From IMG/VR virus record IMGVR_UViG_2563366963_000007: a DNA stretch of 42,685 bases. One strand, 5' to 3'. Both the position numbers and the translations under genes were made by a program. The notes below the pieces were generated by a model. It saw only the letters and a program-made list of their open reading frames with translations, did no database searches and had not been told where the DNA came from. Source of the stretch: a virus. Lineage: Duplodnaviria; Heunggongvirae; Uroviricota; Caudoviricetes. This document shows positions 10,113 to 36,487 of this stretch, piece by piece. How positions within the stretch are numbered: position 1 is the first letter of the stretch; each line of letters opens with the position of its first letter.

Positions 10113-10498
10113 AATATCAGCTCCATATTATTAAACTCTAATCGCTGTTGTGTTTCGATATCTGTTGCGATAATTAATATTGTTATTTTCCCGATATCCA
10201 CTGCTAACACATTTATTCTGTCAATTCTGACGCGTGGTTCCCATCGTGCTATTGCGCCAGCGCTTTCCATGATTATTCGCATAGCAAGCGACGGATCTGT
10301 GGGATTATCAACAAGATCAAATAATTTGCTGCCATATTCCGGCAGCATTACACGCGTCCCCAGCGGGGTCGTTAAAATATCAACGATAGACTGACGAATG
10401 TGATCAGTCCCCGATAAAAGTTTACCGGTGTTACGGTCCATTCCAAGCATCTTTACGCCATTGGTTGGTTCGGTTGTTGAGTTTCCCCGTCCGGACAT
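10109..10498 (-). CDS. baseplate assembly protein W (gp25-like)
   Basis: 129-aa ORF between V and J; pattern IRQSIVDILTTPLGTRVMLPEYGSKL typical of the GPW/gp25 family; the true start may be an internal Met. Confidence 0.7.
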   Translation of the reverse strand: MSGRGNSTTEPTNGVKMLGMDRNTGKLLSGTDHIRQSIVDILTTPLGTRVMLPEYGSKLFDLVDNPTDPSLAMRIIMESAGAIARWEPRVRIDRINVLAVDIGKITILIIATDIETQQRLEFNNMELIF

Positions 10499-11370
10499 AT
10501 ATGAGTGTGTCCGTTATACGTTGTGCGGACTTCAGTTATTGTGCCTTGTCGGTCCTGCACCTCTTGCCCTGCTAACACACTACCGCGAGTTGTGATATTA
10601 CCTGTTCCACCGTTATCTCCAGTGACAGAAATATCGTTACGGAATGTCGCTAATTTATCTACTACTAATGTCTCGGTAATATGCGTTGGACCAGCTAGTG
10701 TTATACCACCCGGAGCCCACGCGCTGATTGTTTGAGCTGTCAGCGATATTCTGTTCGCAGCAGTAACACTAACAGAACTCGTTGCTATAACGTTCACTAA
10801 ATCAGCATGTGCGTTAATTGTATCTGTCGCTGTGACATTAATAATATCAGCGTCTGCGTTAATTAATTTCCCACCATGGATATTAACTACATTTTCGCTA
10901 TTAATAGTAACATCTGCGCGTCCAAATATTTCTATTTCAGACTCACCGAGTATTTTTACCACGCCGTCCGGTACGCCCTGCCATGTCAGAGTGTGATTTT
11001 TTGTGTTATACGTCATCGTAGCCCCGTCACAGTATGCAGTGACATGATCATGGGGGTCATTGCTTGGCGGAGCTTTGTCGTCAATGTGCAGCCCGAGCAT
11101 AACTACACCGTTCCGCGTATCCCCACCCTCAGAAACAACAGTAACGGGATCGCCCACTGATGGTGCGCTCCAGTCGACGCGTTCTGAGGTGGCGTGAGTA
11201 AACCACTGCAGCCAGCCTGACTGGTGTTCGCCACCAAATGAGACTCGGCAGCGTGGAGGATTCATTTTAACTGCAGCTATCGTGCCGCGTTTAACTGCGT
11301 CACGCAGCCTGCGCGCGTTCTCCGCTGCAGCATATTCATCGTCCGATTGGGCCATAATAGTCGCCCTCAT
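10453..11370 (-). CDS. baseplate spike / assembly protein V-like
   Basis: 305-aa ORF; N-terminal pattern CRVSFGGEHQSGWLQWFTHATS...WSAPSVGD resembles gpV, with a C-terminal beta-helix-like repeat region. Confidence 0.65.
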   Translation of the reverse strand: MRATIMAQSDDEYAAAENARRLRDAVKRGTIAAVKMNPPRCRVSFGGEHQSGWLQWFTHATSERVDWSAPSVGDPVTVVSEGGDTRNGVVMLGLHIDDKAPPSNDPHDHVTAYCDGATMTYNTKNHTLTWQGVPDGVVKILGESEIEIFGRADVTINSENVVNIHGGKLINADADIINVTATDTINAHADLVNVIATSSVSVTAANRISLTAQTISAWAPGGITLAGPTHITETLVVDKLATFRNDISVTGDNGGTGNITTRGSVLAGQEVQDRQGTITEVRTTYNGHTHICPDGETQQPNQPMA

Positions 11371-11872
11371 GTTCTGCGCCGATATCTGGTGCTATTCCGA
11401 CGTATATATTTTTCAGGGTCCCCTGTGAGGGATAATCGAAAATATCTGGACCAACGCCTACAACCTGCGTGAACGACACGCACTGAACTGAATGCGAACC
11501 GACTGACTGCCCGTTTTTAATCCAGTCGCACGGTTCCGCGTCGCTGAATTTTGCCGGTTTAGTTCCGGGACCGAACATTCGCCCATTGATCCAGCTCGTC
11601 ATATAGAGCGCTGCATTCTGCGATTTCAGTCCGTACTGATCAGCTGCAAATTCACGCAGCAAATACAAATTACACGACAGCTCGACTGACTGAATTGAGC
11701 CTGGAACCGATTCGTCACTCTGTGACCAGTTGCTGATTTCCAGGAACAGAGCTGGCGTTTCAAATCCAGCCGGAATTTCCGGATAAATTCCGAATGTTTT
11801 GATGAACGGTATTTGTAAAACCGCGCCTTTAACGCGATCAAGATATTCGTCAAATGCATCCAGTCCGCTCAT
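11336..11872 (-). CDS. putative tail completion / virion morphogenesis protein
   Basis: 178-aa ORF between the head-completion genes and baseplate V; assigned by position only (R/S-like slot). Confidence 0.3.
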   Translation of the reverse strand: MSGLDAFDEYLDRVKGAVLQIPFIKTFGIYPEIPAGFETPALFLEISNWSQSDESVPGSIQSVELSCNLYLLREFAADQYGLKSQNAALYMTSWINGRMFGPGTKPAKFSDAEPCDWIKNGQSVGSHSVQCVSFTQVVGVGPDIFDYPSQGTLKNIYVGIAPDIGAEHEGDYYGPIGR

Positions 11873-12549
11873 AATCGTTTACCTGTTTTTGGGTCTACGT
11901 GGACATTACCTTTCACGCGACCGCGCAAATCTTTCTCAAAAAAACCCATAAAAACAGGGCCAATGTTTTCAAAAATATAATCATCGATAGCATCCTCCAG
12001 CGCGTCGTGCACAGGTACGCGAGCCTCTTCGATTCCTCCGCGATCCAGTCGAATCCAGACACTTTTCGCACCGTAGCGTTTCGCTACGAATGAATCGGGC
12101 CAACTCATCATCGCCAGCCCTGCACTTTTGGGTGTAAAAGTTGCCCCTCTAGCGCCTTTTTTGGTTTTCAAAAACAGGCCGGTCTCAAGATCGCGAGGCT
12201 GTTTTTGCCTCCGTGGATTTTGTAATCGCCCCTTTAGCTCAGATACCCGGAAATCATTCAGACCGTACCAGAGCTTGGCGCTGCTCAGGTCTCCTGCCCC
12301 TTCTTTTGTAAAATTACGGCGCTTAATGAACGGCTTGATTCGTTTATCTACGGCCTTATGATTTTTAGCTGCCAGTGCAGTCAAAATCATTCCTGCTGAA
12401 ATTCGGTGCATATGTTTTGCAGTTCGGTTCAGCGCCCTGTTGTATACCATTAACATTTGATGTTGCGTCGCGCTGATTTCGACTCTGAGCTGCTCCAGCG
12501 CCGAAACATCGATATCGAACATCTGCGCGTTACTACGTAAATCGGCCAC
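11869..12549 (-). CDS. putative tail completion / neck protein
   Basis: 226-aa ORF in the head-to-tail junction region; no motif recognised. Confidence 0.3.
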   Translation of the reverse strand: MADLRSNAQMFDIDVSALEQLRVEISATQHQMLMVYNRALNRTAKHMHRISAGMILTALAAKNHKAVDKRIKPFIKRRNFTKEGAGDLSSAKLWYGLNDFRVSELKGRLQNPRRQKQPRDLETGLFLKTKKGARGATFTPKSAGLAMMSWPDSFVAKRYGAKSVWIRLDRGGIEEARVPVHDALEDAIDDYIFENIGPVFMGFFEKDLRGRVKGNVHVDPKTGKRL

Positions 12550-12580
12550 GGTTCCCCCTTAAGTGGGACCGAGGTCCCAC

Positions 12581-12961
12581 TTAGTATTTTGAATACTCGC
12601 TGTTTTCGCTGGACGTGTGAGGCTCTAAAAAAATATTCGTGAGCCCTGTGCCATCAGGTTGAGGCTCTTTAACCACGTAATCGGTCCAGCCAGACCAGGT
12701 AACAGAGCCGTCAGGTTCGATGCTGCGCTGCTTTGGAACCTGGACGACGTCACGCGCAACAACGCCAGCGACGTCGTCCGAGAGCGCCGTCAGGCTCGTT
12801 ACTGTACCGGTAATAAAACCAGCGTGAGGAACGTCAACGCGCGCGTAAGGCTCGTTGAAAATAGCGATAATGGGGTCGGTTTTACCGCGTAATTTAACGG
12901 GCCGTCCCCACTCACGGATCATCTCCTCGTCGCCGGCCCGGAGGTCATCGTAGTAGCTCAT
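12581..12961 (-). CDS. putative head-tail joining protein (FII-like)
   Basis: 126-aa ORF following the FI-like gene in lambda-type order. Confidence 0.4.
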   Translation of the reverse strand: MSYYDDLRAGDEEMIREWGRPVKLRGKTDPIIAIFNEPYARVDVPHAGFITGTVTSLTALSDDVAGVVARDVVQVPKQRSIEPDGSVTWSGWTDYVVKEPQPDGTGLTNIFLEPHTSSENSEYSKY

Positions 12962-13377
12962 AGAGCGTAAACGTGATCAGCTGCGATAAGGTCTGCGACC
13001 TCCGGTGAATCAACAACAATTTCACGGCCTGCGGCAACAATCTCGCGAACGCGACGCCCGTTCACGTAGTGATAAACGTCCAGCGTGTTACGCAACTTGA
13101 CGCGGCGCGTAGCCGGTGCGAGCTCCTGCTCTTGTGACTGTGAAACGATAGCGCTCGCGATTGATTGAGCGAGTTCATTATCGGTCCCGGACGCAGTATT
13201 CACTGTAATCTCGATGCCTCCCGCGTCACCGGATTGCTCGTTCAGAATATCGAGCTCTGACTCAGCGCCGGCAACGATTGATTCCAGTTCCGCAATAGTC
13301 CCGCTGCGCGGTAATTCGCGACCGAGCTGAGCGCTCAGATCGTCAATACGCGCCAGCAATTCTGTTTTTGTGCTCAT
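12958..13377 (-). CDS. DNA packaging protein FI-like
   Basis: 139-aa ORF; N-terminus MSTKTELLARIDDLSAQLGRELPRSGTIAELESIVAGAESELD parallels lambda FI; directly after the major capsid gene. Confidence 0.55.
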   Translation of the reverse strand: MSTKTELLARIDDLSAQLGRELPRSGTIAELESIVAGAESELDILNEQSGDAGGIEITVNTASGTDNELAQSIASAIVSQSQEQELAPATRRVKLRNTLDVYHYVNGRRVREIVAAGREIVVDSPEVADLIAADHVYAL

Positions 13378-13390
13378 GTTGATTCCTTAA

Positions 13391-13414
13391 CAAAAAAGAG
13401 CCTTTCGACTCTTA
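13391..13414 (-). terminator. hairpin plus U-tract downstream of the major capsid gene
   Basis: Minus-strand RNA AAGAG-UCGAAAGG-CUCUU followed by UUUUG, overlapping the capsid stop codon. Confidence 0.4.
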
Positions 13415-14446
13415 CGCGATTTTTACGACAACGAACGCGTCGGCGTCCGTGAGGACCATTGCTGGCGCGGATTGCGTCATTGTTTGCGTCACTGCCGGAT
13501 CACCGGTAGTGGTCCAGACTTTTGGATAGCGCGTCGCTTCGGAAATACCCTCTTTCAGCGCGTCTTCGTCCTGAATTGCGCCATAAGTGCGGAGCCCGCG
13601 GTTTTTTGTGTTGCCAAGGATCATCGTGTTATCCGGCATATAACGCGTTTCAGTGTCTGTTACCGGGTCGAGGTATTGCCCTTTGTAGACAAACAGCGCA
13701 GTGTCGCCGTAGTAGCCTTTAAAGCTGACAACGTCGCCCAGGTTTTTCAGCGCGACCTCGAGCTGGCTGTTTGAGCCACGGCGCGTATCCAGTGCCGTCC
13801 AGAATTTTTTAAAACGCTTCAACTGCTTCCAGGCTTTACCATCCATGATGATCACGTTAACCGCACCGGAGGCGAGGTCCGCGTAGGATTCAATATCGTC
13901 GCTCGGGTCATACGTTTCCGCGTCCTGAGTCGACCAGGCTGTCGAACCGGACTGAGTGACGTTATTCGTCGCGCTGCGGCTCATGTCGATCTCATAGGTC
14001 TCGATATTGCTGCCGGAAACAGTGTATTTACCGTACAGAACAGCCTGTACCGCCTGGAACTCTTCGAGCTGGCTGATGCTCAGTTCCTCATCAAGCAGGT
14101 TCTGCATGATGATTTTTGCACGACGTTCGACCGGCGTTTCCGGCTGGCCAATCTGCTCACCGGCTGCGCGCTTGATGCTCATATTCGGATTGATCGTGTG
14201 CTTGGGTTTCGTGTAACCCGGTTTGAAATGGTTCGTTGAATAGCCGCGAGTGCGGTCAACTTTGCCGGTGATCATCGGCGCGCAGTACACGGCCATGTTC
14301 ACTTTTCCCGGGATTTTATCCAGAAAAACCTCTTCGCTCGTAAACGTGTAGGTCTCACGGAAAAACAGCTTTAAAAACAACGGATTGAACTTAAATACCT
14401 GCTGTGTCGCGGTAATCAGTTCTGACGTAGTAAACGAATCGCTCAT
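13412..14446 (-). CDS. major capsid protein (lambda gpE-like)
   Basis: 344-aa ORF; strong similarity along its length to lambda E as recalled (QQVFKFNPLFLKLFFRE...RRAKIIMQNLLDEEL...LPDNTMILGNTKNRGLRTYGAIQD...YPKVWTTTGDPA). Confidence 0.9.
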   Translation of the reverse strand: MSDSFTTSELITATQQVFKFNPLFLKLFFRETYTFTSEEVFLDKIPGKVNMAVYCAPMITGKVDRTRGYSTNHFKPGYTKPKHTINPNMSIKRAAGEQIGQPETPVERRAKIIMQNLLDEELSISQLEEFQAVQAVLYGKYTVSGSNIETYEIDMSRSATNNVTQSGSTAWSTQDAETYDPSDDIESYADLASGAVNVIIMDGKAWKQLKRFKKFWTALDTRRGSNSQLEVALKNLGDVVSFKGYYGDTALFVYKGQYLDPVTDTETRYMPDNTMILGNTKNRGLRTYGAIQDEDALKEGISEATRYPKVWTTTGDPAVTQTMTQSAPAMVLTDADAFVVVKIA

Positions 14447-24448: not shown

Positions 24449-25090
24449 TTATTTATCACTCCTGTAAATTGGAATTAACCATTTTCTAATCGTCGACGCT
24501 GCAGGTGGGTCAGAGTATTTCGCCACAAAAATACCGGATATGTATTGCACGCCACGCGATAATGGCGCTGTCGGGTTTTCAGTAAAAAAACGATCAGCCA
24601 GTTCAATGGCTTCGCTTTTTAATCTGTGCTGTGGTCGTCCTCCGCCCTTTGTTCCCAGGTATCGCGCCAGTTGTTTGAAACGGTAGGCGATGATTAACGG
24701 TCGCATCATCATATTGAAAAAATCGCGGGCATCGTTGTCAGCGCCTTGCGCTATCAACAGTGCAAAAAACAGATACGGGATTATGTACACTTCAGGAGAT
24801 ATACGAACCCGTTCACAAGTTGGTGGAGCCAACTCAATAAGTAAGTCAGCCAGCGGATTCCCCTTTTCTCCACGTTTGTAATAGCGATACAGCGGCCCGA
24901 TATCAAGTTCACTCACGTCGATTTCAGGATGCCCGGCAACGACTGTACGTATCTCTTCTGCCAGAGCGTCAAATATTGCCCCGGTCCGTTCAAGATAGAG
25001 CCTCCGGGTCGAACCGCGATCATCCAACGCCCGTAACATATCTAACCGGCTAACGAAAGTTTCAGGCCAGTCCTCATAGAAGGTTTTCAT
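24449..25090 (-). CDS. hypothetical protein (nin-region, unknown function)
   Basis: Start reassigned to the ATG at 25090 (MKTFYEDWPE...), with GAGGT 5 nt upstream; 213 aa. Confidence 0.45.
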   Translation of the reverse strand: MKTFYEDWPETFVSRLDMLRALDDRGSTRRLYLERTGAIFDALAEEIRTVVAGHPEIDVSELDIGPLYRYYKRGEKGNPLADLLIELAPPTCERVRISPEVYIIPYLFFALLIAQGADNDARDFFNMMMRPLIIAYRFKQLARYLGTKGGGRPQHRLKSEAIELADRFFTENPTAPLSRGVQYISGIFVAKYSDPPAASTIRKWLIPIYRSDK

Positions 25091-25333
25091 AATTACCTCG
25101 AATAATAAAAACTGCACTATTTGCACAATTTATTATTCGTTTTCACGCCGCTGAGTTCTATAAAAAAGAAAAAACCTCCGAGGCAGGGTTTTGTTATGGC
25201 TCGTTAAATCATCATCCAACTTTTTAGACTGAACGGTGATACTTGCAAATATTTGAAAATATGGGCTGGAACCCTATCTTATGATGTGCCTGGTAATTTA
25301 TATTGTTGGGTCTTTATATCATGAGGAATCACT

Positions 25334-25567
25334 ATGGGTACGTTAGGCAACCAGCCGTGCAGAAGTCGTTATGAGTTCGATGATTTTAATTTAGCCAATC
25401 GAGCTGCGGCTCTTACTAAGTTAGCAAAAGAAACTGGTGTATCGGTGGATACCTTAATCAAACTTGAAATTGCTATGCAACTGAATCGGCTCAACTCCAT
25501 CCTTATCGAAAACGGTGACAAGATGGACGAGAATCTGGCAGGTATTGGCGAGATACTGCAGAAGTGA
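25334..25567 (+). CDS. small protein with possible helix-turn-helix
   Basis: 77-aa ORF with GAGGA 7 nt upstream; segment LAKETGVSVDTLIKLE looks like a helix-turn-helix; first plus-strand gene of the accessory cassette. Confidence 0.4.
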   Translation: MGTLGNQPCRSRYEFDDFNLANRAAALTKLAKETGVSVDTLIKLEIAMQLNRLNSILIENGDKMDENLAGIGEILQK

Positions 25568-25573
25568 GAGTAG

Positions 25574-25600
25574 CCCCTCTTCTGAGGGGTTGCACATTTA
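25574..25600 (+). terminator. hairpin downstream of the 77-aa gene
   Basis: CCCCTC-TTCT-GAGGGG followed by TTGCACATTTAAAAT (weak U-tract). Confidence 0.4.
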
Positions 25601-25866
25601 AAATATTAAGGGCGGTCTTCTTCACGTACACAGTCACCTGGTCGAATCGTTCACGCATACTGAGTACAAAAAATCTCAACGATAAGATCAGGTTAGACCT
25701 GTATTTTCCAGAAACATATAGACGCCTAAAAAAACACTAAACTCATGATTATCATGTATGTTTTTACTGGAAACATTGAACCATCCACAATACAGCGTAA
25801 AAAGCAAGCAATTCACAAGATTTTAAAGTGATTTATCTGGAAGACTTTACTACTAACAGTTAATAT

Positions 25867-25911
25867 CGTACCAGAAGTGCAGAATTTGCACTTTTACAGG
25901 AATGTGGTACG
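25867..25911. promoter_or_regulatory. nested palindrome upstream of the ImmA-like gene
   Basis: CGTACC-AGAA-GTGCAGAATTTGCAC-TTTTACAGGAATGT-GGTACG, about 55 nt upstream of the 25966 ATG. Confidence 0.4.
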
Positions 25912-25965
25912 GAACATGCTGTCTATATTTCAACCAATAATCGTAATGCAGTAACTGGAGGAGCT

Positions 25966-26454
25966 ATGGCTACCAACCCAAGAGAGCACGCCCGGCGAGT
26001 GCTGGACACGTTCTGGTGCGGGCGTGGTTTCCCTGTTGATCCAGCGAAAATTGCTCACGACATGGGATTAGATGTTTTTATTACCGATCTTCCTGGGAAA
26101 GTTTCTGGCGCACTGATTAAACAAAAAGATCAAGATCCAGCGATCTTTCTAAACAGTGATGACAACAAAGTTCGTCAACGTTTTTCATGTGGGCATGAGT
26201 TGGGGCATTACATCGCCCGGCAAGCATCGCATAGCGATGAATATGAGTACGTTGATTTACGTGGCGAAACCGCAAGCGCCGGAACGCATCCTGATGAAAT
26301 TTTTGCAAACAAGTTCGCAGCAGAACTTCTGATGCCGGTAGATGAGGTCAGAAAACTGCACGCTGACGGTCAACCAAGTTATATAATGGCGCATTATTTT
26401 GGCGTATCTGACGATGCGATGACTTATCGTTTAAAGAACTTGAGGTTGGGGTAA
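25966..26454 (+). CDS. ImmA/IrrE-family zinc metallopeptidase
   Basis: 162-aa ORF with GGAGG upstream; canonical HEXXH (CGHELGHYI) followed by EIFANKFAAELLMP, the signature of the ImmA/IrrE (M78) family. Confidence 0.8.
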   Translation: MATNPREHARRVLDTFWCGRGFPVDPAKIAHDMGLDVFITDLPGKVSGALIKQKDQDPAIFLNSDDNKVRQRFSCGHELGHYIARQASHSDEYEYVDLRGETASAGTHPDEIFANKFAAELLMPVDEVRKLHADGQPSYIMAHYFGVSDDAMTYRLKNLRLG

Positions 26455-26463
26455 CGCTTTAAA

Positions 26464-27069
26464 ATGCCATCGGATGACGATTTTAACAGCCGTTTCAAAC
26501 AGGAAGTAGCACGCAGACTGAAGGATTCCCTCAACCTACACCGTCAGTTAGCAGAAGAGGTTGAGCCGGAGGACGATGAAACTCCGGTTCAGTCTCCTGA
26601 CGAAGCTTCACCTCAGCCAAAGGTTTCGCACGCCCCCAAAAAAACGGCTGTCCGTATTCGCGGAATAGCCAGAAAAAGAGCTGCCGAAGCTCGCAAAATG
26701 GCTGTAGCTGCGTCTAGCAAAAGAATTCCAACTGCTACACCCTCTCAACAAGTCACCCGTACTGAGAGTAAAATCTTGACCGAGTTCACATCTGTGAAAC
26801 AGGTGAATTCACTTGATACCGAGCATGAGCGCAAACAACTCAACAACAAAGATTTTGAAGCAGAAATCGCTCTAAAAAAACGATACGGGAAATGGTTCCT
26901 GATTATCCTTGCTTTCCAACTTCTGATAATGAATGGTGTATTTATTGCCGACGGCGCAGGTAAGCTGGAATTTGAGGATTTAACACTACAGTTGTACATG
27001 GGCGGTACTTTGACAGAGGTATTCGGCCTCGTGCTGGTCGTGACAAAATACCTTTTTAAACGCAAGTAA
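26464..27069 (+). CDS. membrane protein with charged N-terminal region and C-terminal two-helix anchor
   Basis: 201-aa ORF starting 7 nt after the peptidase stop codon; two hydrophobic helices at the C-terminus (WFLIILAFQLLIMNGVFIADGAG and GGTLTEVFGLVLVVTKYLF). Confidence 0.55.
   Translation: MPSDDDFNSRFKQEVARRLKDSLNLHRQLAEEVEPEDDETPVQSPDEASPQPKVSHAPKKTAVRIRGIARKRAAEARKMAVAASSKRIPTATPSQQVTRTESKILTEFTSVKQVNSLDTEHERKQLNNKDFEAEIALKKRYGKWFLIILAFQLLIMNGVFIADGAGKLEFEDLTLQLYMGGTLTEVFGLVLVVTKYLFKRK
26998..27069 (+). repeat. direct repeat copy A (3' end of the membrane-protein gene)
   Basis: 72-bp segment about 92 percent identical to 30421-30492. Confidence 0.85.
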
Positions 27070-27314
27070 CTCTCTCGGTCCAACAGTCTTTCGAAGGCCC
27101 TGATCAAAGGGCCTTGATAAATTAGCAGTGCGTTGAAAACAGATAGTTATTCCCATCAGCTCCAACGTAATACACATCAAAAAAATCACCATTCTTTTGC
27201 TCTAACGTCAACACCTACCCTTAAAAAAATAATTCTCCAAGAATGAGAAAGTTATTGTGTGTATTAGATAAGATATGAGCTGACACATCTATGGCGTGGA
27301 GCCAAATTTAATAT

Positions 27315-27346
27315 GACAGTCCGCTCTGTGCCATAAGCGGACTGTC
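27315..27346 (-). terminator. 11-bp perfect inverted repeat hairpin
   Basis: GACAGTCCGCT-CTGTGCCATA-AGCGGACTGTC about 190 nt downstream of the 27532..28230 minus-strand gene; AT-rich flanks. Confidence 0.35.
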
Positions 27347-27531
27347 AATAAACAGATTCACTTGTAAATCTTGAAGCTATACATATTTACTTTCAATGAT
27401 AAATAAAAGAACTATCCAAAAATCACTGAGAGCATATTTTAACTAACCCTCCGCTACTATTAACATAAATTTCACCCAACCATAATTAAATTGATACATA
27501 TAGCAACTTACCTTGATACGAATCATCTGGG

Positions 27532-28230
27532 TTATATTTTTCCATATTTTTTTCCGTCAAATCGAATCATGCCAGGATCAAGAAAATTAATTAAATCGAT
27601 TAACGCGTGCTGTATTCTGATTAGCCTTTCTTTATAAATTCCGATATCTCTTGTCATATTTATCACTTCATTGTTTAAATCTAAAAAAAATGGCTCATTG
27701 ATAAAGCAATTTTCCTTTGTGAAACTGCCGTAACCTATGCAATCAAATCCAGTATCTGTTGATATCAGCATCTTTTCTGCAATAGCTCTCTGCTCTCCTA
27801 TGAAAAACATAAAATACTGACCAAAGACGTCTGTTTGGATTAATGAGTTAATATTGTTCTGTAATCTAATAAACTCCCTCATTTTTTTATTTTTTTCTAG
27901 GCTAAGGTATTGAATGTCTATGCGGGCAGCTTCTGTCCATGCAAAAAACTGGGAAAAAAGAAAAACAGTATTGTTGATAACATAATCTTGTTGGCGCTTA
28001 TTCCCATTATGATAAAACTCTTCAATGAACCCCAATTCTAATATATTATAAATACGGCTTTGTAAGTCTGAAGCTGAGCGAATTAACGGTTCAATATAGT
28101 ACTGATGTTTTCTCCTTACATCCAGTGATTCATTGAGCTTGTTTATTCTATTCTGATTATAAGTAGATATAGCAATAGAGATTATAGCTATTGCACCACT
28201 AATAAAGCTTGAAATTAATGCCGTACCCAT
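27532..28230 (-). CDS. hypothetical membrane-anchored protein (orphan, low GC)
   Basis: 232-aa ORF with one N-terminal hydrophobic helix and a C-terminal domain of unknown family; strongly AT-rich codon usage. Confidence 0.5.
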   Translation of the reverse strand: MGTALISSFISGAIAIISIAISTYNQNRINKLNESLDVRRKHQYYIEPLIRSASDLQSRIYNILELGFIEEFYHNGNKRQQDYVINNTVFLFSQFFAWTEAARIDIQYLSLEKNKKMREFIRLQNNINSLIQTDVFGQYFMFFIGEQRAIAEKMLISTDTGFDCIGYGSFTKENCFINEPFFLDLNNEVINMTRDIGIYKERLIRIQHALIDLINFLDPGMIRFDGKKYGKI

Positions 28231-30388: not shown

Positions 30389-30420
30389 TTAGTCATCAAG
30401 TGCATATGTAACTGTTTTAT

Positions 30421-30492
30421 ATGGGCGGTACTTTGACAGAGGTATTCGGTCTCGTGCTGGTCGTGGTCAAATACCTTTTTAAGCGCAAATAG
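30421..30492 (+). repeat. direct repeat copy B (orphan 3' gene fragment)
   Basis: Duplicates the last 24 codons of the 26464..27069 gene (MGGTLTEVFGLVLVVVKYLFKRK) with a stop immediately upstream in frame. Confidence 0.85.
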
Positions 30493-30516: not shown

Positions 30517-31335
30517 TCAAAATGCTGAATTAGCAACGGATATAGCCGACTTTTTCCCCATTACCATCAATTTATCCAGTGTCATACTTCGCAGATTGTC
30601 GCTGTGGATCACCAGATACCCTGCCCGCTCAGCGATCTCTTTGAAAGCGTCAAAGGTCATCAGATGTTCGCCTTTGGCAACATGGCGCATCCCGGTCACT
30701 TTTCCATTTTTGATAGTGGTGATAAAAGAAAAATCTGGAATGGTTGGGTGATTTTCATCGAGTAGCAGGCAGTGGATGTATTCAATCGCCTCTAACATTT
30801 GCGTCTGTGACAGTTGTTCTATGTGAGAGACGGCGAAGCGTTGATGAATCATGGTGTAGGCATCGGGATACATCATGCCTTTCTTGCCGACCAGTATATT
30901 AACGGCATCACGCAAGGGAGTACGGTCATCGGTAGTTGTACTCCGCCTCTCTGGACGCTGGCTAAAATAACAATCTTCCAGCTTTTCGAAAACTTCCCAG
31001 GCCTGTTCTGTTTCCAGCATTTTGGCATGGCGAGCTGCGCCGCGTTCTGTCCAGAGAATGAGGGATCGGGTATGTTTAGCAACTGACTGACTATCTGTCA
31101 GTCTGTTTTTGAAGTCGCGTAATTCATTACCTTCCAGCTTAAAAAAATGCTTTCCTACGACAAATCTGGCGATGTTGCGCTTGAAGTTTTGCTGGATACC
31201 ATTTACTTCCGTGCCATACAAACTGGCAAGCAATTCAGTAGTGATGACGGGAAGTTGGTTATGATGTAGCGGAGAAAGGGATTCCGCAGATATTTGGACT
31301 GTCATCGCAGTGGCCTCACTTAGTGTTTTTTTCAT
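30517..31335 (-). CDS. putative antirepressor (ORF6N-domain protein)
   Basis: Start reassigned to the ATG at 31335; N-terminal LPVITTELLASLYGTEVNGIQQNFKRNIARFVVGKHFFKLEG matches the ORF6N domain of phage antirepressors as recalled. Confidence 0.5.
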   Translation of the reverse strand: MKKTLSEATAMTVQISAESLSPLHHNQLPVITTELLASLYGTEVNGIQQNFKRNIARFVVGKHFFKLEGNELRDFKNRLTDSQSVAKHTRSLILWTERGAARHAKMLETEQAWEVFEKLEDCYFSQRPERRSTTTDDRTPLRDAVNILVGKKGMMYPDAYTMIHQRFAVSHIEQLSQTQMLEAIEYIHCLLLDENHPTIPDFSFITTIKNGKVTGMRHVAKGEHLMTFDAFKEIAERAGYLVIHSDNLRSMTLDKLMVMGKKSAISVANSAF

Positions 31336-31465
31336 CACCACCAGCGACGCCAATCATCTGGTGGTGAGCTGTGCAGGGTTGGCGTAACCGGCTAAGTGAA
31401 CCCGGCGCTTCCACAGAAGCCCCCACACAGCCCACCATAATGCGAATGTGGCCGTGCCTAACACA

Positions 31466-36410: not shown

Positions 36411-36480
36411 CATCATTACAAACAATAACTGTAATTACAAATTATATTTGCAATGCTCCCTACAATTAAACCTTGTATCC
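36411..36480. promoter_or_regulatory. right operator region with divergent promoters
   Basis: Repeated ATTACAA half-sites: ATTACA-N9-TGTAAT (36415-36435), ATTACAAAT-TAT-ATTTGCAAT (36434-36454), TACAA-N7-TTGTA (36461-36478). Minus-strand TATAAT at 36441-36446 and plus-strand TACAAT at 36461-36466. Confidence 0.55.
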
Positions 36481-36487
36481 TTACGGT

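What the first reader, a model, noticed from the sequence alone, without database searches (positions are those of the whole stretch)
25334..27069. Accessory cassette: small HTH-like protein, ImmA/IrrE metallopeptidase and a membrane-anchored protein
Between the nin-type genes and the antirepressor, on the strand opposite to the early-right operon, lie three co-oriented genes: a 77-aa protein with a helix-turn-helix-like segment, a 162-aa ImmA/IrrE-family peptidase (HELGH plus EIFANKFAAELLMP), and, 7 nt downstream, a 201-aa protein with a charged N-terminal region and two C-terminal transmembrane helices. A nested palindrome (25867-25911) sits in the peptidase promoter region. HTH plus ImmA-like peptidase pairs are known damage-responsive switches that control phage induction and some anti-phage operons (for example CapH/CapP of CBASS); a membrane protein as the regulated output would fit an abortive-infection or superinfection-exclusion effector. 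The combination is not one I can match to a named system.
Basis: partly seen in the sequence, partly recalled or inferred. Interest (0 to 1): 0.75.

Follow-up and report, generated by a model that had tools for sequence, protein, structure and literature searches.

The report
Peptidase plus membrane-protein gene pair
A prophage of pandemic E. coli ST131 carries an undescribed, widely conserved two-gene unit, a small zinc peptidase of the ImmA/IrrE family always followed by a two-helix membrane protein, that sits in a known anti-phage hot spot and probably acts as a protease-controlled membrane "kill or exclude" switch.

Summary
The three ORFs, the HELGH/EIFANKFAAELLMP motifs, the two C-terminal membrane helices and the nested palindrome are all real. 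The cassette, however, has two genes, not three. The 77-aa gene has its own hairpin. It is missing from sister prophages that keep the pair. It models as a two-helix hairpin and gave no HTH match.

The 162-aa M78 peptidase and the 2TM protein are tightly linked. The peptidase lay directly upstream, on the same strand (genome loci: gap −23 to +15 nt), of every full-length 2TM gene whose upstream DNA was visible: over 50 loci, about 40 distinct, from Proteobacteria, Nitrospirota, Desulfobacterota and Bacillota and their phages. No other neighbour recurs among the 21 genome loci, and no HTH gene does. The 2TM domain has about 724 cluster representatives and no Pfam or PADLOC model. The peptidase lacks the HTH and GAF domains of CapP.

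In a sister prophage the same slot holds the validated defence gene PD-T4-3.

Best reading (about 0.4): the membrane protein, not a repressor, is the peptidase's partner or substrate. The pair would be a post-translational abortive-infection or toxin–antitoxin-like switch. Whether the peptidase activates or restrains the membrane protein is unresolved. I found no paper describing it. I rate it a new variant of a known kind.

The parts
25825..25965 (+). Conserved 5' region of the module (promoter/leader). It contains the nested palindrome at 25867-25911 and the GGAGG ribosome-binding site.
   Evidence: About 270 nt upstream travel with the pair in E. coli GF43 and E. whittamii. The last ~140 nt are also alignable in Salmonella L009, including the outer palindrome arms; the inner arms differ. 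The 56-nt palindrome folds with z = -4.5. The consensus scan found no strong sigma-70 site here. There is no LexA box and no Rfam match. Function is unknown.
25966..26454 (+). 162-aa single-domain ImmA/IrrE (M78) zinc peptidase. Catalytic residues are H77-E78-x-x-H81 plus E111. C75 and the YEYVDLRG loop are characteristic of the family.
   Evidence: PF06114 7.7e-18. PADLOC capP 2.4e-25, matching only the peptidase part, profile positions 3-151 of 242. PDB 7t5t CapP 1.7e-4, core only. HExxH is intact in 117 of 120 homologues and Cys sits at position -2 in 111 of those 117. Invariant columns come from the alignment.
26464..27069 (+). 201-aa membrane protein. N-terminal helix at 4-32, disordered variable linker at 33-119, conserved juxtamembrane helix (LD..R..L.N.D..E..LKKxY), then a two-helix membrane hairpin carrying conserved polar residues Q152, N157 and E185. 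Predicted topology is N-in/C-in.
   Evidence: AF2 model. Alignments. Hydropathy and charge. 724 cluster representatives at E <= 1e-3. No Pfam, PADLOC or PDB family.
27094..27115 (.). Perfect 8-bp stem hairpin (AAGGCCCT-6 nt-AGGGCCTT) 25 nt after the 2TM stop codon. Likely the end of the two-gene transcription unit.
   Evidence: Inverted repeat I16. It has no T-run, so the terminator scan did not call it. Its role is an inference.
30411..30491 (+). Relic of the last ~80 nt of another 2TM gene. It forms an 81-nt direct repeat, 89% identical, with 26988-27068. The two copies bracket the 232-aa gene and the LprI gene.
   Evidence: The same relic lies between LprI and ORF6N in viral contig L061. 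It explains the 'second place' seen in most E. coli genomes.
25334..25567 (+). EXCLUDED from the module. The 77-aa gene is an independent neighbouring accessory gene, modelled as a two-helix hairpin with no HTH match.

Best explanation
Genes 25966-26454 and 26464-27069 form a self-contained two-gene module with its own 5' region and a hairpin after its 3' end. It is probably expressed from the prophage independently of the lytic operon, which is an inference from its antisense orientation.

The first product is a cytoplasmic, single-domain ImmA/IrrE-type zinc peptidase. The second is an inner-membrane protein with a cytoplasmic N-terminal region and an N-in/C-in two-helix hairpin.

I propose that the membrane protein has taken the place of the XRE repressor that is the usual neighbour-encoded substrate of M78 peptidases. 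In this model the peptidase binds the conserved amphipathic juxtamembrane helix, about residues 117-141. Like ImmA, IrrE and CapP, it stays latent until a stress or infection signal arrives. It then cuts once near the invariant L137-K138-K139, a hydrophobic-basic site comparable to F|R in CapH (PMC13228613) and L|R in DdrO (recalled, not checked here).

The cut would remove the variable N-terminal 'lock' and leave a ~64-aa holin-sized two-helix peptide. That peptide would oligomerise through its conserved Q/N/E residues and depolarise the membrane. The result would be aborted infection, or exclusion of a superinfecting phage, to the benefit of the prophage.

Shown here: the gene anatomy, the obligate pairing across phyla, conservation of the catalytic motif, the absence of any HTH partner, and the hot-spot location. 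Inferred: that the 2TM protein is the substrate, the cut site, the direction of control, membrane damage as the output, and the trigger.
For: (1) Obligate synteny. All 21 loci from the species-representative genome collection have an orthologous M78 peptidase (phmmer 1e-31 to 1e-112) directly upstream on the same strand. The gap is -23 to +15 nt in 20 of them; in L020 the 2TM ORF is cut short. The same holds for 18 of 18 full-length hits in viral contigs, all 12 enterobacterial places returned from 5 look-ups, and 6 of 6 loci in a distant Firmicutes-phage branch. Two of three look-ups that started from the peptidase found the 2TM partner.

(2) No other recurrent neighbour. The flanks range from housekeeping genes to integrase and a Mu-type portal, so the pair is autonomous and mobile.

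(3) Catalytic HExxH is intact in 117 of 120 peptidase homologues.

(4) The loop between HExxH and the third zinc ligand aligns with the regulatory 'cysteine switch loop' of CapP (PMC13228613). In this family it is the conserved sequence YEYVDLRG, with D97 and R99 invariant. This fits a latent, regulated enzyme.

(5) In the characterised M78 systems read here (CapP/CapH, IrrE/DdrO, ImmA/ImmR) the protease cuts one partner protein that is usually encoded next to it (PMC13228613; PMC12323379).

(6) Across phyla, the only conserved cytoplasmic part of the 2TM protein is the ~25 residues before TM1.

(7) Hot-spot context. The same slot in the same prophage backbone holds PD-T4-3 (PADLOC 5.7e-138) in strain TUM13936. 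Elsewhere the pair lies beside Hok and ParDE.

(8) The pair is antisense to the lytic operon and has a hairpin after its last gene, as expected for a gene expressed in the lysogen.
Against: There is no experimental data of any kind.

The N-terminal 'lock' is mostly disordered. Its length (about 25-130 residues) and sequence vary greatly, which is odd for an autoinhibitory domain.

Catalytically dead peptidase variants persist next to intact 2TM genes in at least three lineages: RELGR in L030, EELGF in five Firmicutes viral contigs and HKIGH in P0251. This fits a binding or neutralising role at least as well as an activating one.

The peptidase-first, translationally coupled gene order is the classical antitoxin-toxin order.

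The 162-aa enzyme has no recognisable sensor domain, so the trigger is unknown.

The 2TM domain matches no holin family.
Confidence: 0.4

Rival explanations
1. Toxin-antitoxin or addiction module in which the peptidase is the negative regulator. The 2TM protein is an intrinsically toxic membrane protein. The co-translated M78 protein keeps it harmless by sequestering its juxtamembrane helix and/or by constantly clipping it. The toxin is released when the peptidase is inhibited, titrated or no longer made, for example after loss of the element, phage-induced host shut-off, or a phage-encoded inhibitor.
For: Peptidase-first, overlapping or near-overlapping gene order, as in type II TA operons. 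Every full-length 2TM gene whose upstream DNA was visible had a peptidase, whereas one peptidase orthologue was found without a 2TM gene (L039). Dead-active-site variants remain paired with intact 2TM genes. IS1 knocks out the 2TM gene while the peptidase stays intact in at least 5 ST131-type genomes. The pair occurs as small insertions between housekeeping genes, as TA loci do. A Zn-peptidase-containing antitoxin is known from RosmerTA (bioRxiv 10.1101/2022.05.11.491447).
Against: HExxH is kept in 97.5% of homologues, so catalysis matters. Among the M78 enzymes read about here, the characterised ones are signal-activated switches rather than constitutive degraders. The IS1 insertions are probably a single clonal event. 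Only one orphan peptidase was seen. The truncated-peptidase records I checked were homopolymer-indel or low-quality-assembly artefacts. The asymmetry therefore has no statistical weight.
Confidence: 0.3
2. Superinfection exclusion. The 2TM protein sits in the inner membrane and blocks DNA entry or another envelope step of incoming phages. The peptidase matures or tunes it, or removes it on induction.
For: It is a prophage accessory gene antisense to the lytic operon. The periplasmic loop is the most variable part of the membrane domain. Between otherwise near-identical alleles, 6 of 18 amino-acid changes fall in residues 161-171, while the adjacent peptidase gene differs at only 3 of 489 nt. 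Known exclusion proteins are small inner-membrane proteins (general knowledge, not tested here).
Against: It does not explain why a cytoplasmic protease is an obligate, translationally coupled partner in every phylum. Many copies lie outside prophages, next to housekeeping genes. Conserved polar residues inside both membrane helices suggest a pore or oligomer rather than a passive plug.
Confidence: 0.1
3. Trans-acting anti-repressor protease. The peptidase cleaves an XRE-type repressor encoded elsewhere, either this prophage's own CI-like protein or that of a competing element. The 2TM protein would be a membrane tether or regulator of the protease.
For: The prophage's CI-like repressor (36473-36898) has an HTH_3 domain and no S24 autocleavage domain. 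That is the architecture of ImmR, DdrO and CapH. ImmA-type proteases induce phages and ICEs in this way (PMC12323379).
Against: The gene lies about 10 kb from the repressor, whereas classical immR-immA genes are adjacent. The prophage already carries an ORF6N anti-repressor-type gene. The pair occurs without any recurrent HTH neighbour and outside prophages. Sister prophages with the same backbone lack the pair altogether, so it is not part of the induction circuit.
Confidence: 0.1

Closest known systems
ImmA/ImmR (ICEBs1, phi105, staphylococcal phages) and IrrE/DdrO (Deinococcus)
   Same: The protease is of the M78/COG2856 zinc-peptidase family, with HExxH plus a downstream Glu. It is small and single-domain like ImmA (about 169 aa, from memory). 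It is carried by a mobile element and encoded next to its presumed partner.
   Different: The partner gene is a two-helix membrane protein, not an XRE helix-turn-helix repressor. There is no DNA-binding component and no link to the prophage immunity region. Any output is therefore post-translational rather than transcriptional.
CapP/CapH regulators of CBASS and other immune operons
   Same: This is the best PADLOC and PDB match of the peptidase core. The loop between HExxH and the third zinc ligand aligns with CapP's regulatory switch loop. The setting is defence-related.
   Different: CapP is about 290 aa and has HTH and GAF domains that bind ssDNA (PMC13228613). This protein is 162 aa and lacks both. 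There is no CapH and no downstream immune operon, only one small membrane protein.
RosmerTA (RmrT/RmrA) and PD-lambda-2
   Same: Both are TA-like anti-phage systems in which one component carries an M78 Zn-peptidase domain. RmrA profiles hit the peptidase at 6e-12.
   Different: In those systems the peptidase is fused to an Xre HTH domain (the RmrA profiles are 357-400 positions long; PD-lambda-2B is a HigA-like HTH fused to a peptidase). In the E101 module of Rousset (cited for this configuration) and in PD-lambda-2 the toxin or toxin-like gene lies upstream of the peptidase gene. Here there is no HTH, the peptidase comes first, and the partner gave no RmrT or other PADLOC match beyond a JetC hit at E = 0.05.
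Class II holins/pinholins and small membrane Abi effectors (for example the 2TM effectors of CBASS)
   Same: The predicted N-in/C-in two-helix hairpin has a basic C-terminus. The membrane domain of ~64 aa is holin-sized. Polar residues are conserved within the helices.
   Different: There is no sequence or profile similarity to any holin family, and only E = 0.006-0.02 to the PADLOC '2TM effector' profile. The gene is not in the lysis cassette, which has its own holins at about 21.7-22.4 kb. It carries a long cytoplasmic N-terminal extension.

Membership tests
Peptidase_M78 / ImmA-IrrE family (the enzyme) | Pfam PF06114 domain scoring above the gathering threshold | tested here: met
   64.9 bits against a cut-off of 22, E = 7.7e-18, covering residues 32-157.
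Peptidase_M78 / ImmA-IrrE family (the enzyme) | HExxH zinc-binding/catalytic motif plus a downstream Glu ligand | tested here: met
   H77-E78-L-G-H81 and E111 are invariant in the paired alignment. HExxH is intact in 117 of 120 homologues.
ImmA/ImmR- or IrrE/DdrO-type protease-repressor switch (the system) | An XRE-family HTH repressor encoded next to the peptidase as its substrate | tested here: not met
   No recurrent neighbour other than the 2TM gene in 21 genome loci. The 77-aa neighbour gave no HTH match and is absent from sister loci.
ImmA/ImmR- or IrrE/DdrO-type protease-repressor switch (the system) | Signal-dependent cleavage of the repressor that de-represses target genes | not testable with these tools
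   Needs biochemistry.
CapP/CapH | CapP architecture: peptidase, HTH and C-terminal GAF domain (~290 aa) forming the ssDNA groove | tested here: not met
   The protein is 162 aa. It matches capP profile positions 3-151 of 242 and 7t5t residues 79-152 of 291. The architecture is as described in PMC13228613.
CapP/CapH | Adjacent CapH HTH repressor and an associated immune operon (CBASS and others) | tested here: not met
   No HTH gene and no CBASS, BREX or similar genes. Downstream there is only the 2TM gene, then a hairpin.
RosmerTA | RmrA antitoxin, an Xre HTH fused to a Zn-peptidase (profiles of 357-400 positions) | tested here: not met
   Only the peptidase part of the RmrA profiles is matched, for example positions 166-266 of 363. 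The protein has no HTH domain.
RosmerTA | An RmrT toxin partner | tested here: not met
   The 2TM protein's only PADLOC hit is JetC at E = 0.05.
Type II-like toxin-antitoxin module (generic) | Two small, translationally coupled genes that move as a unit between unrelated genomic contexts | tested here: met
   Gap of -23 to +15 nt in 20 of 21 genome loci. Flanks are unrelated.
Type II-like toxin-antitoxin module (generic) | One product is toxic and is neutralised by the other | not testable with these tools
   Only indirect hints: IS1 in the 2TM gene, one orphan peptidase, and dead-site variants.
Holin (class II/pinholin) | Membership of a holin sequence family and a location in the lysis cassette beside the endolysin | tested here: not met
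   No Pfam holin hit. The window's holins and endolysin lie at about 21.2-22.5 kb on the other strand. The predicted topology does resemble class II holins.
Known anti-phage defence systems (PADLOC-DB v2.0) | All components match the profiles of one catalogued system | tested here: not met
   The peptidase hits only the capP, RmrA and PDC-M69B peptidase profiles. The 2TM protein hits none.

The most novel reading that the evidence does not exclude
This would be a phylum-spanning, previously undescribed class of two-gene conflict modules. In it an ImmA/IrrE-type peptidase has exchanged its usual DNA-binding repressor substrate for a membrane-embedded effector. The signal would then be turned directly into membrane permeabilisation with no transcription step: a protease-gated, holin-like suicide or exclusion switch. 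About 8% of complete E. coli genomes carry it, including the pandemic ST131 lineage.
Probability: 0.35. Interest if true: 0.8.

Novelty: new variant of a known kind. Interest (0 to 1): 0.65.

Why it matters
M78 (ImmA/IrrE/CapP) peptidases are understood as stress-activated proteases that cut a neighbouring HTH repressor. That model underlies prophage and ICE induction, the Deinococcus radiation response and the regulation of CBASS.

This module keeps the protease but replaces the repressor with a conserved two-helix membrane protein, in bacteria from at least four phyla and in their phages. If the membrane protein is the substrate, the family's logic extends from transcriptional switches to direct control of a membrane effector. 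That would also define a new, compact abortive-infection or TA-type system.

The module is easy to test, being 1.4 kb with two genes. It is common in a clinically dominant E. coli lineage, and it lies in a prophage slot that elsewhere carries a validated defence gene. The 2TM domain, with about 724 clusters at 50% identity, has no model in the Pfam-A copy searched.

Tried and rejected
- **Three-gene cassette with an HTH regulator.** Rejected, see the observation check.
- **Membership of CapP/CapH or RosmerTA.** Rejected on domain architecture and the missing partner.
- **Foldseek searches.** The 2TM model against viral structures and the 77-aa model against PDB returned nothing below E = 1. 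PDB profile searches were also empty.
- **tblastn of the 2TM protein.** No hit in 50,697 deposited phage genomes. The only hit in 72,556 plasmid records was a mislabelled 4.9-Mb chromosome. The only phage record matching the DNA ends inside the module.
- **Regulatory signals.** There is no LexA box upstream and no Rfam family in 25100-27500. The consensus scan found no strong sigma-70 promoter between 25700 and 25965. A weak candidate -10 (TAATAT, 25861-25866), conserved in Salmonella, would place the palindrome at the transcription start. I do not rely on it.
- **A conserved small ORF or third gene in the 400-nt spacer.** None is conserved beyond E. coli.
- **Natural knock-outs of the peptidase with an intact 2TM gene, as a test of the antitoxin model.** The candidates P0282 and P0325 proved to be a low-quality assembly and homopolymer-indel artefacts, so they are uninformative.
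- **Literature.** Nine full-text searches and reads of seven papers, including DefensePredictor, a domain-centric defence screen, Vassallo 2022, Millman 2022 and Rousset 2021, found no description of an M78-2TM pair. RefSeq accessions WP_000224749, WP_001138663 and WP_000536919 occur in no held paper.
Full report
**Where the window comes from.** It is a lambdoid prophage of E. coli. The region 25130-27300 is 100% identical to the chromosome of strain ZH063 and many O25b:H4-ST131 genomes. RefSeq annotates the surroundings on the minus strand as capsid, terminase, lysis, Q, DUF1364, DUF1367, then further on ORF6N, helicase, YdaT-like and a Cro-like regulator. A divergent CI-like HTH gene follows. 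The peptidase gene is found at full length in 431 of 5,426 complete E. coli genomes, and so is the 2TM gene. All copies are chromosomal.

**The observation.** The three plus-strand ORFs exist at the stated coordinates.
- The 162-aa product is a Peptidase_M78 protein, E = 7.7e-18, with CGHELGHY and DEIFANKFAAELLMP.
- The 201-aa product has an acidic and basic N-terminal part and two C-terminal helices. AF2 gives H4-32, a disordered stretch at 33-119, then H120-164 and H174-199, with mean pLDDT 66.
- A 19-residue hydropathy window exceeds 1.6 at 142-165. Charges follow the positive-inside rule: LKKRYGK before TM1, an acidic 11-residue loop, and KRK at the C-terminus.
- The gap between the two genes is 9 nt, not 7.
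- The palindrome at 25867-25911 is real and nested. As RNA it is more stable than all 200 shuffles.

**The 77-aa gene is not part of the unit.**
- Pfam finds no HTH family; the best hit is MerR at E = 0.13.
- AF2 (pLDDT 80) gives two long helices, 17-34 and 38-76. That is a helical hairpin, not a three-helix DNA-binding HTH.
- Neither Foldseek nor a PDB profile search finds any relative.
- A G+C-rich hairpin follows its stop codon, and about 400 nt separate it from the peptidase gene.
- It has only 15 homologues. A 53%-identical one sits alone in a different prophage, next to a ParE-like gene.
- In E. coli GF43 and STEC434, and in E. whittamii, the same prophage slot keeps the peptidase-2TM pair. 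The 77-aa gene is replaced by an unrelated minus-strand gene, and the downstream 232-aa gene is replaced by a 134-aa gene plus a GIY-YIG/T5orf172 gene.

**The pair is an obligate, ancient two-gene module.**
- The 2TM protein has 48 close homologues in Enterobacteriaceae. In every context examined, a 162-aa M78 gene lies directly upstream. These contexts are: beside the integrase and a tRNA attachment site in Klebsiella, E. coli and Salmonella; after the antiterminator in a Serratia prophage; and in the nin region beside Hok and ParDE in Cronobacter.
- A profile of the family finds 724 cluster representatives at E <= 1e-3, and 181 at E <= 1e-10, among 1.84 billion proteins. They share the C-terminal domain LKKxY-x7-QLxxMNxVF-x3-G-x3-L-x8-LYmGGTLxEVFGxVxVxTkYLF, with polar Q, N and E residues inside the helices. 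Neither Pfam nor PADLOC has a model for this domain.
- A scan of one genome per species returned 21 loci. They come from Gamma- and Betaproteobacteria, Nitrospirota, Desulfobacterota and a Bacillota MAG. All 21 have an orthologous peptidase (phmmer 1e-31 to 1e-112) directly upstream on the same strand. The gap is -23 to +15 nt in 20 of them; in L020 the 2TM ORF is cut short.
- Clustering all neighbours of those loci finds no other family present in more than two loci. Flanking genes include sucCD, rpoD, pheT, alkaline phosphatase, an integrase and a Mu-type portal.
- In IMG/VR contigs, 18 of 18 full-length hits are paired.
- A distant AT-rich branch in Firmicutes phage contigs is paired in 6 of 6 loci, and sits just after the endolysin in the two loci inspected.
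- Starting from the peptidase instead, Pectobacterium and Salmonella orthologues have the partner. One phage contig (L039) does not.

**What the peptidase is and is not.**
- Its 120 best homologues are nearly all 147-198 aa and lack additional domains. 117 keep HExxH, and 111 of those have Cys two residues before it.
- It matches only the peptidase part of the capP and RmrA profiles, and only residues 79-152 of the CapP structure 7t5t.
- CapP and IrrE sense ssDNA in a groove formed with HTH and GAF domains (PMC13228613). Those domains are absent here.
[quoted passage not shown] This suggests, as an inference, a regulatory lid over the active site.
- Sporadic active-site losses occur next to intact partners: RELGR in L030, EELGF in five Firmicutes viral contigs and HKIGH in P0251.

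**Context supports a conflict role.**
- The slot is mosaic. With the same backbone, strain TUM13936 lacks the pair and carries instead five other genes. One is a full-length PD-T4-3 (PADLOC E = 5.7e-138), a defence gene validated by Vassallo et al. 2022 (PMC9519451).
- An 81-nt relic of another 2TM gene's 3' end lies between LprI and ORF6N, at 30411-30491. It forms a direct repeat with 26988-27068 around the 232-aa and LprI genes, evidence of cargo swapping at this site.
- Between the window and the GF43 allele, the peptidase gene differs at 3 of 489 nt. The 2TM gene differs at 44 of 606 nt, giving 18 amino-acid changes, 6 of them in the periplasmic loop.

**Mechanism.** I commit to a protease-controlled membrane effector in which the 2TM protein is the peptidase's direct partner and substrate. 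My reasons are:
- the strict and exclusive synteny;
- the conserved catalytic site;
- the rule that M78 enzymes act on a neighbour-encoded protein;
- the fact that the only cytoplasmic segment of the 2TM protein conserved across phyla is the juxtamembrane helix ending in the near-invariant L-K-K/R.

The direction of control is not settled. I give 0.4 to signal-triggered cleavage that unlocks a holin-sized pore, leading to abortive infection. I give 0.3 to the peptidase acting as an antitoxin-like restraint. That reading is favoured by the gene order, the dead-site variants, the single orphan peptidase and the IS1 hits in the 2TM gene, but none of these carries statistical weight. Exclusion at the envelope, and a trans-acting anti-repressor role, get 0.1 each. 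For the latter, the CI-like repressor does lack an S24 domain.

**Comparison with known systems, and novelty.** The enzyme is a member of the M78 family. The system fails the defining tests for ImmA/ImmR, IrrE/DdrO, CapP/CapH and RosmerTA, because it has no HTH partner or fusion and no GAF domain. It is absent from PADLOC v2. I found no paper describing it. I therefore rate it a new variant of a known kind: an M78 protease-partner module whose partner is a membrane protein.

Noticed in passing
window 27020-27052 and 26029-26061; also 24692-24725: E. coli type I-E CRISPR arrays carry perfect 33-34-nt matches to this prophage region. One spacer in strain 23CRST027 (CRISPR between ygcE and queE) matches the 2TM gene, and its protospacer has a canonical AAG PAM. 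A 33-nt match inside the annotated CRISPR array of strain GCM39-10-2-9-3-1 falls in the peptidase gene. A third lies in the neighbouring 225-aa gene (strain LI60C3). About 10 genomes show only such short matches for each of the two module genes.
   Followed up: partly
window 26988-27068 and 30411-30491: An 81-nt direct repeat, 89% identical. The second copy is a relic of the 3' end of another 2TM gene, between LprI and ORF6N. The repeats bracket the 232-aa and LprI genes, which suggests cargo exchange by recombination at this sequence.
   Followed up: yes
L040 (NZ_CP030337.1) and hits H12-H16; equivalent to window ~26975: IS1 is inserted in the 3' part of the 2TM gene. It truncates the product to 171 aa and removes the second helix, while the peptidase stays intact, in at least five ST131-type genomes. 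This is probably one clonal event.
   Followed up: partly
window 27532-28230 (-): A 232-aa protein with an N-terminal membrane helix (phrog_5606, no Pfam family). It gives a weak PADLOC hit to RTasTM, the membrane partner of a DRT reverse-transcriptase defence system (E = 1.8e-5). There is no RT gene nearby. Sister prophages replace it with a 134-aa gene plus a GIY-YIG/T5orf172 gene.
   Followed up: no
L076 (NZ_CP134358.1, strain TUM13936) 8152-14223: The backbone is the same prophage but the slot has different cargo. Three unannotated genes, a full-length PD-T4-3 (PADLOC 5.7e-138) and an HNH endonuclease replace the whole 77-aa/peptidase/2TM/232-aa/LprI set. This marks the slot as a defence hot spot.
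   Followed up: partly
L066-L070 (IMG/VR Firmicutes-type phage contigs), L030, P0251: Peptidase orthologues with a destroyed active site remain full-length and coupled to intact 2TM genes. The variants are EELGF, RELGR and HKIGH in place of HExxH. In L066 and L070 the pair lies between the amidase endolysin and a convergent 107-aa XRE gene.
   Followed up: partly
window 25966-27069 versus L041, L015, L048: Divergence is strongly unequal within one operon. The peptidase differs at 3-4 of 489 nt and 0-1 amino acids. The adjacent 2TM gene differs at 41-44 of 606 nt and 16-18 amino acids, clustered in the linker and in the periplasmic loop at 161-171. The cause could be a recombination breakpoint or diversifying selection.
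   Followed up: partly
window 36473-36898 (+) and 30517-31350 (-): The CI-like repressor is HTH_3 only, 130-142 aa, with no S24 autocleavage domain. An ORF6N protein is encoded about 5 kb away. Induction therefore probably runs through an anti-repressor or a protease rather than RecA-stimulated self-cleavage.
   Followed up: no
window 25334-25567 (+): The 77-aa protein (phrog_5550) is a stand-alone accessory gene with its own hairpin. It has an invariant MGTLGNQ N-terminus and an invariant MQLNRLNSILIE segment in its only two diverged homologues. Its function is unknown.
   Followed up: partly
L039 3995-4555: This was the only context found in which a peptidase orthologue lacks the 2TM partner. 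It is a phage-like metagenomic contig, and the next gene is convergent.
   Followed up: no
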